A stretch of DNA of 64,000 nt, taken from NCBI RefSeq assembly GCF_009914755.1, contig NC_060926.1. The stretch is one strand, 5' to 3'. Below, piece by piece: positions 58,286-62,345 of the stretch; the stretch's first letter is position 1; every line of letters starts with the position of its first letter. The notes beneath the pieces were generated by a model, which saw only the letters and a list, made by a program, of their open reading frames with translations, was not told the origin of the DNA and did not search any database. Origin of the DNA: the human T2T-CHM13v2.0 reference genome, Homo sapiens. Both the position numbers and the translations under genes were made by a program.

Positions 58286-59108
58286 GTAAGTGCACTGGGT
58301 GGCAAGGCCCCCCAACCTGGGGTCCCCTCTGCAGGGTCACCTCCTTCCTCTAGGGCTGGTTCTCCCGTCCACACCACTTTGTTGTCTTTTAGGGGGCTCA
58401 CTGTGCCCCCTCATTCCTTCCCTGCTCCTCCAGTTGAGCAGATGGCCCCCAAATCTAACGTCCTCTGCTAAACCTGCCTCCTTCTGGGTTCCTTCTAGAC
58501 ATAAAATAGAATAGACACTGGGCCAGCCACCTGGAGCAGAGGAGGCCAGCCCCAGAGGAGGGGCGAGGGTGGGGAAAGCCGCAGGACAGGCTAGGGGAGG
58601 GGGCAGCAGAGGGGTCTGCTGTCCTCGCAGAGCCCTGGGTAAAGCCCTTCCTATGACCCATGCCCCCTCCCCCAGCCCTGACCAGGTGAGCCCCCAACCC
58701 GCAGCATGAAATGGTGAAATGAGAGGGGGAAGCCCCCTTCCTTCCCTTTCACGGCGGGTCCCTTCAGCACTGGGCGGACACACCTCTATTTTATCCACCA
58801 CATTTACCTTCTCTTTTTCCATGTCCCCCTTTCCTTAAGTAAATGACATTACCATCCTCCAGCACTGTCCTCTTCTTCTCCTCCCCTCTCTCAACTCTCC
58901 AACCTATGACCGAATCCTGCCCATTTTTTAGGCCAAAAGTCTTCTGGGATGCATCCAGCCACCCTGCACCCCACTGCCATGCCCCGGCCCGTGCCACTAC
59001 CTCCCTCTCCACCCCACAACTGCTGCCTCCGCCTCTTACACGGCATCCCATCCTTGCCTTCTGCCACCTCCCTGTGCGGTCAGGTGCCCTTTGAAAGGAG
59101 TTTGAGCA

Positions 59109-59428
59109 ATGTTCATCCTCATTGCCTCCTGTTCTGCCCACGATCCCCTCCCCCAAGATACTCTTTGTGGGGAAGAGGGGCTGGGGCAATGCAGGCTGGG
59201 TGACCGACTACCCCAGTCCCAGGGAAGGTGGGGCCCTGCCTCTAGGATGCTGCAGCAGAGTGAGCAAGGGGGCCCGAATCGACCATAATGGGTGTAGGGG
59301 CCACCTCCTCCCCCTGTTCTGTTGGGGAGGGGTAGCCATGATTTATCCCAGCCTGGGGCTCCCCCTCTGGTTTCCTATTTGCAGTTACTTGAATTAAAAA
59401 AAATCCTTTTCTGGAAAAAAAAAAAAAA
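59109..59428 (+). pseudogene. 5'-truncated processed retrocopy, probably the HMGA1 3'-UTR terminus
   Basis: Perfect 15-bp TSD AAAGGAGTTTGAGCA (59094-59108 and 59429-59443); poly(A) tail from 59415; ATTAAA at 59393-98. Body (...CTCTGGTTTCCTATTTGCAGTTACTTGAA...TCCTTTTCTGG) matches my recollection of the HMGA1 mRNA end. The retrocopy structure is seen directly; the parent is from memory. Confidence 0.82.
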
Positions 59429-59568
59429 AAAGGAGTTTGAGCATGGGTGGCCCTCGCCTTCAGGACTGGGCATGGGCTGCCCTCCGCAGCCTTCATGTAG
59501 GCCTCTCCTCTGTGTGCTCTGAAACCTGCTGTGTTGGCCTTTTGTGCTTTTTTTTTTTTTTTTTTTGA

Positions 59569-59906
<338 letters not shown>

Positions 59907-60137
59907 TAGTGTGGTCCCTGGACCAGCAGCATCAGCAACACCTGGAACCTTGTTAGAAAGGTAGATCCTCAGGCCCTACCTCAGTCCTCTGATTCACTAA
60001 TTCTAGGGACCGGGCCCAGCAATCTCTATGTTAACAAGCCCTCCCGGGGATTCTGCCCCCACCAATGTCTCAGCATCAATAGTATGAGAAGAATACCAGT
60101 AATATCTGTGGCCCACCACCCATTCAAGAAAATGTTA

Positions 60138-60401
<264 letters not shown>

Positions 60402-60687
60402 TCACCTTGCCTATGTACTCTGCAAAATGAAAATGAAGGGCCTTGGAAAGTCAATCTCCCCTTTCCCAATGCACCTACTGCCCCAGCCAGGGGATTGCAG
60501 CCTCCAGCACTGGCACCCTCTAGGTGTCCACTAAGCACCTGGATTGGGATAGGTGAGAGGCCCCCACCCTCCGAATCCACACGCTGCTGCTGGCCAAGGG
60601 CCAGAAGGCTGTATCCTAGACTGACTCTCCCTGCACTCACATCTGCGCCCCCATTCAGGCCTCCCATGCCTCTCTCCAATGCCAATG

Positions 60688-60862
60688 CCATCTCCTCAGG
60701 TGGAGCAGAGCTACCTGGCCCTGTTCTGTACACATGCCTCCCAGCTACACGACCACGTCCAGGACCTGGTGCTAGCTGTCCTGGTGAGGGGGCCTGGGGT
60801 GGTGGAGGCTAGGTCACTTGGGGCCCTGAGCTGGGGACATGTGTGGTCCTTGATGTGACACA
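60688..60862 (+). repeat. Intragenic duplicate of MFSD2B exon 9 and flanks (copy of 63119-63293); exon-like part 60700-60783
   Basis: Base-by-base comparison: 175 bp, 4 mismatches (60719, 60764, 60771, 60775), offset 2431; AG/GT sites retained. Confidence 0.97.
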
Positions 60863-61239
60863 AGGGTTGGGGAAGGGAAAGTATCAAGGAGTGGGGAGCA
60901 GGAGGCTGAGAACCCATGCCCAGGGGGCAGAGCCTCATGTGAGCAGAGACTGGATGCTCTTGGTGGCTCACAACCCACTGTCCCATCAGATTTCACTTAC
61001 AAAATTGAAATCCATTATAAAATTATTAAGAATCTCAAGACAGCAACAGCAGAGCATTGAACCCCAGAGGCAGTGCCCTCCAGAGCATGAGGCCCAGGGC
61101 GGTTGCACAGGATGAGTGCCCTGCCCCACCCTGCGCCCTCCCTCTCCTCCCCTCCCCAGAGGCAGCCTCTGTCCCGAACTGGCTGTGACTCTCGTGCATG
61201 TCTTTATAGGCATTTTAATGCATATGTATTCTTCTCTGA

Positions 61240-61577
<338 letters not shown>

Positions 61578-61613
61578 TAATTTTTTATTTTTATTTTTTA
61601 TTTTTCCTTTTGA

Positions 61614-61718
<105 letters not shown>

Positions 61719-61761
61719 TGAGTAGCTAGGATGACAGGCACCCGCCACCACACCCAGCTAA

Positions 61762-61908
<147 letters not shown>

Positions 61909-62345
61909 TAATCTGAGTCACCATGCATCTCACCGTGCTGTAACCACCTGCTCCTGGATCTGTCTTCCTCCCCACACTCTGAGCCCTGTGGATGGACAGG
62001 GCTCACTTATTCATCATTGGAGCCTCAGGGCCTGGCATGCGGAAGGCAGCAGCAGTCAATGTTTGCTTCATAGAATGTGGGAAGGAGCACTTTGGCTCCT
62101 GGGGCATGTGTCCTCTTTGCCATGCAGGGAACACAGGGTCAGCAGAGGGGGTGTGTGGAAGGACCAGCCCGGGCCCGGAGAGCATGCTGTCCTGTGGGGT
62201 GATTGGGAGGTGGGGACCCAGCGTCCTGGGCTTGGGTTGTGCCTCCCTCCGCTCCCACTGGGAGGCAGTACTGCCCTGCCCCTCCGGTGTCACCACCTCC
62301 AGGGGTTGAAGACATCACCCATCCCAGTCCTGTCCTGTCCCACAG

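What the first reader, a model, noticed from the sequence alone, without database searches (positions are those of the whole stretch)
59094..59443. Sense-oriented HMGA1 3'-UTR retrocopy with perfect TSD inside MFSD2B intron 6
Seen: a 15-bp perfect TSD, an A-tail and an L1-endonuclease-like TG/AAAG insertion site enclose ~306 nt of non-Alu sequence. From memory this is the terminal HMGA1 3' UTR; with no CDS, it may be missed by pseudogene annotation. Established: HMGA1 pseudogene RNAs have been described acting as decoys for HMGA1 3'-UTR-binding proteins and miRNAs. Inference: this copy is co-transcribed in sense with an erythroid/MK gene, so it could act as a lineage-restricted decoy or mis-attract HMGA1 3'-end reads.
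Basis: partly seen in the sequence, partly recalled or inferred. Interest (0 to 1): 0.7.

Follow-up and report, generated by a model that had tools for sequence, protein, structure and literature searches.

The report
Truncated HMGA1 retrocopy in MFSD2B intron
A 308-base copy of the tail end of the HMGA1 messenger RNA sits in an intron of the red-cell and platelet gene MFSD2B; it was likely pasted in by LINE-1 machinery during primate evolution and is likely a harmless passenger, an ordinary kind of short pseudogene that the annotation and lists checked here omit.

Summary
A 15/15 target-site duplication (59094-59108, 59429-59443) and an A17 tail enclose 308 nt that match the 3' end of HMGA1 on chromosome 6 at 301 of 309 columns. 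It lies in sense in MFSD2B intron 6. It is a 5'-truncated processed pseudogene of a known class, the short mRNA pseudogenes of Terai et al. (PMC2831318). It is missing from the RefSeq table, the eight-member HMGA1P list and Terai's Table S1. Five private substitutions in 285 nt and 4 of 4 intact CpGs make it one of the youngest HMGA1 copies. A decoy role is weak: only 2 of 8 parental miRNA seed families are kept, it has no known promoter, and it is predicted to leave with the intron. Read mis-assignment holds in simulation only for 50-nt reads or reads with untrimmed poly(A). The one live idea is that it gave intron 6 its only AATAAA/ATTAAA hexamer, a possible intronic poly(A) site; the parent's downstream GU element was not copied, and no RNA data were available. 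Ordinary; low interest.

The parts
59094..59108 (+). 5' target-site duplication (15 nt); last A also matches the parent (1-nt microhomology)
59109..59415 (+). Copy of the last ~308 nt of the HMGA1 mRNA (positions 1097-1405 of the 1405-nt last exon), 5'-truncated, no coding sequence
   Evidence: 301/309 identical to C6:34069628-34069936
59415..59431 (+). A17 tail remnant (first A may be templated, last three belong to the 3' TSD); only run of 12 or more A in intron 6
59429..59443 (+). 3' target-site duplication (15 nt, identical to the 5' copy)
59393..59398 (+). ATTAAA hexamer at the position of the parent's AATAAA poly(A) signal; the only AATAAA/ATTAAA on the sense strand of the 4060-nt intron 6
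59386..59393 (+). Retained miR-26 8mer seed match (seed recalled)
59247..59253 (+). Retained miR-103/107 7mer-m8 seed match (seed recalled)
59293..59320 (+). Retained TGTA (59293) and C-rich pyrimidine tract (59301-59320), one of two such tracts in the parent's last exon; possible upstream 3'-processing or poly(C)-binding-protein elements (inferred)
58286..62345 (+). Host: MFSD2B intron 6 (phase 0); the insertion starts about 0.8 kb after the 5' splice site and ends 2.9 kb before the 3' splice site
   Evidence: hub RefSeq table

Best explanation
This is a 5'-truncated processed pseudogene of the HMGA1 mRNA 3' end, likely made by LINE-1 target-primed reverse transcription in a primate ancestor and likely a neutral passenger that is spliced out with MFSD2B intron 6. 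Shown: sequence origin, TSD, A-tail, end at the mRNA cleavage site, 1-nt 5' microhomology, intronic sense position. Inferred from established L1 biology: ORF2p nicked a degenerate TG/AAAG site, primed on the HMGA1 poly(A) tail, stopped after about 308 nt and joined the 5' end by microhomology. Inferred: it is transcribed only as part of MFSD2B pre-mRNA and degraded with the lariat. Its practical effect is likely technical: the A17 can prime oligo-dT on nuclear MFSD2B RNA, and untrimmed HMGA1 poly(A)-junction reads can align better here than at the parent.
For: TSD, tail and 97% identity. The class is defined by these hallmarks, with TSDs peaking near 15 bp and last-exon origin (PMC2831318). 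HMGA1 has made at least 10 such copies, one of them another 3'-UTR-only fragment. The copy has 5 private substitutions in 285 nt. It lies 0.8 kb or more from both splice sites and outside the three RefSeq enhancers; the hub table lists one MFSD2B RefSeq transcript. The parent's GU-rich downstream element was not copied: 5 TGTG/GTGT in the parent's next 60 nt, 0 in the 60 nt after the copy's tail. No paper holds HMGA1+pseudogene+MFSD2B or MFSD2B+intronic polyadenylation.
Against: Neutrality is inferred, not measured: no RNA, population or primate data could be examined. The copy keeps a usable hexamer, TGTA and a C-rich tract in sense. It shares T at the poly(A)-signal position with the six other copies aligned there that are not P2 or P3, whereas the parent, P2 and P3 have A (P4 has G); if that reflects insertion before HMGA1P2, 5 changes are fewer than the 11-14 expected (Poisson P 0.04-0.006). 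The site borders an A-run and other sites conflict on the order of P2 and P6, so this is weak.
Confidence: 0.87

Rival explanations
1. The insertion created a cryptic intronic polyadenylation site. A fraction of MFSD2B transcripts would read through the exon 6 donor and be cleaved at the copy, giving an mRNA for 227 MFSD2B residues plus 61 intron-encoded residues (stop at 58469), without the S1P-binding C-domain, ending in the HMGA1 3' end.
For: Only AATAAA/ATTAAA hexamer on the sense strand of intron 6, at the native spacing from the cleavage position, with upstream TGTA and C-rich tract. Read-through frame and stop computed. S1P binds mainly in the C-domain, TMs 7-12 (PMC13558637 passages). 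The genomic A17 would make 3'-end pipelines discard a true site as internal priming (inference), so absence from atlases would not be telling.
Against: No GU-rich downstream element. ATTAAA is weaker than AATAAA and a site about 1.1 kb from a 5' splice site is usually suppressed by U1 (both recalled). One RefSeq transcript only (hub table). No paper found. Introns 1 and 2 also hold hexamers, so a hexamer alone means little.
Confidence: 0.09
2. The copy acts as a lineage-restricted decoy (ceRNA or alphaCP1 sponge) for HMGA1, as described for HMGA1P6, HMGA1P7 and HMGA1-p.
For: Keeps miR-26 8mer, miR-103/107 7mer and one C-rich tract. miR-26 silences HMGA1 (PMC4856999 title and abstract start). 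Decoy roles are reported for three long HMGA1 pseudogenes (PMC5053758). MFSD2B is the erythrocyte and platelet S1P exporter (abstract starts).
Against: 6 of 8 seed families present in the parent's last exon are absent from the copy. The described decoys are near-full-length copies with their own transcripts; alphaCP1 competition is described for a cytoplasmic protein. An intronic fragment is nuclear and short-lived, and one site per molecule would be a negligible share of the miR-26 target pool (recalled, inference). It needs the previous rival to be true first.
Confidence: 0.02
3. The fragment arose by DNA-level duplication or from another HMGA1 pseudogene rather than from the mRNA of the parent gene.
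For: It shares three states with other copies against the CHM13 parent.
Against: Closest sequence is the parent (97%) ahead of P3 (95%); none of its 5 private changes is shared with P2 or P3; homology stops at the cleavage site and is bounded by its own TSD and tail; the 5' flank has no other match.
Confidence: 0.02

Closest known systems
Short (5'-truncated, last-exon) mRNA pseudogenes of Terai et al. 2010, PMC2831318
   Same: Last-exon origin, no coding sequence, poly(A) remnant, 15-bp TSD, 5' microhomology, missed by protein-based pipelines. Their Table S1 has a row (Pseudogene2153) that very likely is the other 3'-only HMGA1 copy, at 2q.
   Different: This locus is not in their table (expected hg17 chr2:24,152,938-24,153,244), and at 308 nt it is just over their 300-bp cut for 'short'.
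Named HMGA1 processed pseudogenes HMGA1P1-P7 and HMGA1-p (PMC5053758 Table 1)
   Same: Same parent, same 3' end and tail; the eight other copies found here lie on the eight listed chromosomes.
   Different: Seven of the eight hold exon-joined coding sequence (P4 on chr9 does not); this one holds only 22% of the last exon, lies at 2p23 inside a host intron, and is not listed.
HMGA1-p, HMGA1P6, HMGA1P7 decoy RNAs
   Same: Share the terminal 3' UTR with miR-26 and miR-103/107 seed matches.
   Different: Those are long copies reported as transcripts; this one lacks most seed sites and has no known transcript.
Retroelement-donated intronic polyadenylation sites (recalled class)
   Same: Sense-oriented insertion bringing a hexamer and A-tail into an intron.
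   Different: Use of the site is untested here; the downstream element is missing.

Membership tests
L1-mediated processed pseudogene (short, 5'-truncated) | Homology to the 3' end of a spliced mRNA, ending at the cleavage site | tested here: met
   301/309 to the HMGA1 3' end; stops where other copies' tails begin
L1-mediated processed pseudogene (short, 5'-truncated) | Poly(A) tract directly downstream, absent from the parent gene | tested here: met
   A17 at 59415-59431; parent continues with non-A sequence
L1-mediated processed pseudogene (short, 5'-truncated) | Target-site duplication of 5-30 bp at both ends | tested here: met
   15/15
L1-mediated processed pseudogene (short, 5'-truncated) | L1 endonuclease consensus TT/AAAA at the 5' TSD (not always present) | tested here: inconclusive
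   TG/AAAG, 4 of 6; consensus described as not always present
L1-mediated processed pseudogene (short, 5'-truncated) | Loss of introns | not testable with these tools
   The copy lies wholly within the last exon
L1-mediated processed pseudogene (short, 5'-truncated) | Empty site with a single TSD copy in outgroup genomes | not testable with these tools
   No primate genomes held (no relatives)
HMGA1 decoy pseudogene RNAs (HMGA1P6/P7, HMGA1-p) | Carries the set of HMGA1-targeting miRNA seed matches | tested here: not met
   2 of 8 seed families with a site in the parent's last exon are kept; 10 families tested, seeds recalled
HMGA1 decoy pseudogene RNAs (HMGA1P6/P7, HMGA1-p) | Stable cytoplasmic transcript | not testable with these tools
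   No RNA data; no such transcript in the hub's RefSeq table
HMGA1 decoy pseudogene RNAs (HMGA1P6/P7, HMGA1-p) | Contains the mapped alphaCP1-binding element | tested here: inconclusive
   One of two C-rich tracts is kept; the paper that maps the element was not seen
Intronic polyadenylation site | Hexamer about 10-30 nt before the cleavage position | tested here: met
   ATTAAA 59393-59398, 17 nt before 59415
Intronic polyadenylation site | U/GU-rich downstream element | tested here: not met
   0 TGTG/GTGT and 8 GT/TG dinucleotides in 60 nt against 5 and 17 in the parent
Intronic polyadenylation site | Observed 3' ends with untemplated tails | not testable with these tools
   No RNA data

The most novel reading that the evidence does not exclude
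A primate-specific HMGA1 retrocopy transplanted a working poly(A) signal into MFSD2B intron 6, so that erythroid and megakaryocytic cells make a truncated 288-residue MFSD2B mRNA ending in the HMGA1 3' end with its miR-26 site, tuning S1P export; the site has gone unseen because its genomic A17 is filtered as internal priming and its reads resemble HMGA1.
Probability: 0.06. Interest if true: 0.55.

Novelty: new member of a known kind. Interest (0 to 1): 0.17.

Why it matters
As it stands, little: one more of several hundred short mRNA pseudogenes, raising the HMGA1 copy count seen here to ten against eight named. It is useful as a caution: it can collect untrimmed HMGA1 poly(A)-junction reads, can cross-react with HMGA1 3'-end primers or probes on genomic DNA and nuclear RNA (inference), and offers an oligo-dT priming site in MFSD2B pre-mRNA. 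It would matter more if the donated hexamer truncates the main red-cell and platelet S1P exporter in primates only.

Tried and rejected
PDB sequence search with an HMGA1 exon gave no significant match (best E 7.1); parent identity rests on exon structure, AT-hook motifs and the match of eight copies to the published chromosome list. A random-position control for the TSD (1603 of 200000) was rejected as a null, because about 300-bp Alus with their own repeats likely dominate it; the shuffle control is used. Rfam found nothing at gathering score in intron 6; the only hit on the copy had E 0.94. Pairing of the A17 with the T-run of the neighbouring antisense Alu appears in the MFE fold but not in the centroid, z -1.6: not significant. 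The idea that the copy is missing from Terai's table because a cDNA exon overlapped it was dropped: three long HMGA1 copies also seem to be missing (using recalled approximate coordinates; P6 and P4 not settled, only 11 of 23 and 11 of 44 places shown). The MFSD2B alternative-transcript-usage signal in PMC12932927 is tied to a variant outside the gene with a coding proxy and says nothing about this copy (2 of 4 rows of Table S5 seen). PMC4856999 passages did not give the position of the miR-26 site in HMGA1.

Full report
Observation. The sequence shows a 15-nt perfect direct repeat at 59094-59108 and 59429-59443 and an A17 run at 59415-59431. The 15-mer occurs only twice in the window even with one mismatch allowed, and 0 of 100 shuffles reached two matches. 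The base before the left repeat is G, so the site reads TG/AAAG, 4 of 6 positions of the TTAAAA consensus, which Terai et al. say is not always present. By the hub's exon table the element lies in sense in intron 6 of MFSD2B (58286-62345, phase 0), outside the three listed enhancers.

Parent. A search of the own genome with 59109-59414 gave 11 matches from 11 candidates scored: the window itself, then C6:34069629-34069935 at 97%, and nine others at 75-95%. The chromosome 6 locus is the intron-containing gene: seven of the nine other copies align to it in 5-7 exon blocks, and three exons encode the RGRP AT-hook core (Pfam AT_hook the only hit for both exons tested, below cut-off). Eight of the nine lie on chromosomes 12, 4, 13, X, 2p, 6q, 10 and 9, matching by chromosome HMGA1P3, P2, P6, P1, HMGA1-p, P7, P5 and P4 in Table 1 of PMC5053758 (parts 1-3 of 6 read); I use those names on that basis. 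The window copy and a second 3'-only copy at C2:201664444-201664696 are not in that list. The window copy covers positions 1097-1405 of the 1405-nt last exon, 301 of 309 columns identical. It ends at the point where the other copies' tails begin and the parent gene continues with other sequence, and shares one A with the TSD at the 5' junction. The 5' flank has no second match in the genome.

Age. Outside the terminal A-tract the copy differs from the parent at 6 of 285 sites; at one of these all 10 copies agree against the CHM13 parent, leaving 5 private changes (1.75%, Poisson 95% range 0.6-4.1%), with 4 of 4 CpGs intact. P3 has 2.4% private changes over 1358 sites, and P1, P2, P6 and HMGA1-p 5.5-7.8%. 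At a recalled rate near 1e-9 per site and year this means roughly 6-40 million years, an ape or Old World primate insertion (inference). One site disagrees: at the poly(A) signal the copy has T (ATTAAA) like P1, P6, HMGA1-p, P7, P5 and the 2q copy, while parent, P2 and P3 have A. If read as order of insertion, the copy would be older than P2 and would have too few changes (P 0.04 to 0.006 for 11 to 14 expected). The site borders an A-run, and P2 and P6 share parent-derived states in conflicting patterns at other sites, so I do not take this as evidence of constraint; primate orthologues would settle it.

Known class. Terai et al. (PMC2831318; parts 1-2 of 4 and passages read) found 4464 mRNA pseudogenes by tail and TSD, 645-654 of them new and 300 bp or shorter, with TSDs peaking near 15 bp, and explain that last-exon copies escape protein-based searches. 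Their Table S1 (part 1 of 25 read, seven searches) can be calibrated: rows at hg17 chr2:24,078,345-24,079,599 and 24,035,198-24,035,707 fit SDHCP3 and RPS13P4 of the hub table, which puts this copy at 24,152,938-24,153,244. All 17 places starting with 241 were shown and none is on chr2, so it is not listed. Rows whose parents I recall as HMGA1 cDNAs fit P3, P2 and P5 by chromosome and strand, and Pseudogene2153 (chr2, minus, 561 span, 264 after Alu removal) fits the second short copy, which has an Alu just upstream of its 253 matched bases. One html and five .doc supplements of that paper could not be read. No paper holds HMGA1, pseudogene and MFSD2B together. GENCODE, UCSC RetroGenes and RCPedia were not available, so 'unlisted' covers only the RefSeq table, the review and Table S1.

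Decoy idea. Of 10 miRNA seed families tested (seeds recalled; families named), 8 have a site in the parent's last exon and 2 are in the copy: miR-26 (59386) and miR-103/107 (59247). The two miR-15/16 sites lie just upstream of the truncation point; let-7, miR-196, miR-214, miR-142-3p and miR-370 sites are also lost. One of two C-rich tracts is kept; the original HMGA1-p paper was not seen, so whether this is the alphaCP1 element is open. The reported decoys are long copies described as transcripts, and alphaCP1 is described as cytoplasmic (passages). An intronic fragment would need its own 3' end to reach the cytoplasm. I rate the decoy reading at 2%.

Intronic polyadenylation. The copy supplies the only AATAAA/ATTAAA on the sense strand of intron 6, with TGTA and the C-rich tract upstream. 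Cleavage there would give 227 MFSD2B residues plus 61 intron-encoded ones, lacking the C-domain that holds S1P (PMC13558637 passages). Against it, the parent's GU-rich downstream element was not copied (5 against 0 TGTG/GTGT in 60 nt), introns 1 and 2 hold hexamers too, U1 usually suppresses sites this close to a donor (recalled), RefSeq lists one transcript, and no paper holds MFSD2B with 'intronic polyadenylation'. Because the genomic A17 sits at the cleavage position, oligo-dT data cannot tell true cleavage from internal priming (mechanism described in PMC11247185 passages). I rate measurable use at about 9% and a functional role at about 6%.

Read assignment. Exact-identity runs between parent and copy are 81, 50, 47, 55, 18, 30, 7 and 13 nt. 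In a local-alignment simulation against all 11 loci (my own scoring, not a real mapper), HMGA1 reads with the tail kept scored best at the window copy alone in 18 of 339 (50 nt), 17 of 369 (90 nt) and 47 of 369 (150 nt) start positions; the copy tied with the parent in 39, 0 and 1, and with another pseudogene in 3, 29 and 0. With the tail trimmed, 309 of 309 reads of 90 and of 150 nt went to the parent, and 39 of 309 reads of 50 nt tied with the copy. Reads from MFSD2B pre-mRNA primed on the A17 mapped back to the window in 308 of 308 cases at 90 and 150 nt, and 39 of 308 tied at 50 nt.

Verdict. A real, cleanly built, young, 5'-truncated HMGA1 processed pseudogene; a new member of a well-known class, likely neutral. 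Origin is shown with high confidence; lack of function is inferred. Other papers seen only as search listings with abstract starts: those; passages only: PMC4226687, PMC6043803, PMC5470649, PMC4856999, PMC12932927 (plus one supplement search). Interest 0.17.

Noticed in passing
L019:445-697 (G000:C2:201664444-201664696, minus): A second, older 3'-UTR-only HMGA1 copy (253 nt matched, 84%, 0 of 3 CpGs intact) with an Alu at its 5' end; not among the eight named HMGA1 pseudogenes, very likely Terai's Pseudogene2153.
   Followed up: partly
L012:9416 (HMGA1 poly(A) signal): Seven of the nine copies in the alignment have T where the parent, P2 and P3 have A, suggesting that the HMGA1 poly(A) signal changed from ATTAAA to AATAAA during primate evolution.
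   Followed up: partly
L012:9385: The CHM13 HMGA1 3' UTR has T where all 10 copies have C: a recent parent-lineage change or a polymorphism.
   Followed up: no
window 59363-59384: The copy holds a 3'-splice-site-like sequence (pyrimidine tract plus CAG ending at 59384), about 30 nt before the A-tail; four other candidates lie earlier in intron 6. No evidence of use.
   Followed up: no
window 59548-59847 and 60140-60414: An antisense and a sense Alu about 300 nt apart directly downstream of the copy, with more antisense Alus at 61274-61894: an inverted pair that could form double-stranded pre-mRNA.
   Followed up: no
L014 and L015 (HMGA1P2, HMGA1P6): The two copies share parent-derived bases in conflicting patterns along the 3' UTR, as ancestral polymorphism, recombination or recurrent change would give.
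   Followed up: no
G000:C13:66544392-66544439 (minus): A 48-nt match (88%, E 8e-6) to the upstream part of the HMGA1 last exon; not examined.
   Followed up: no
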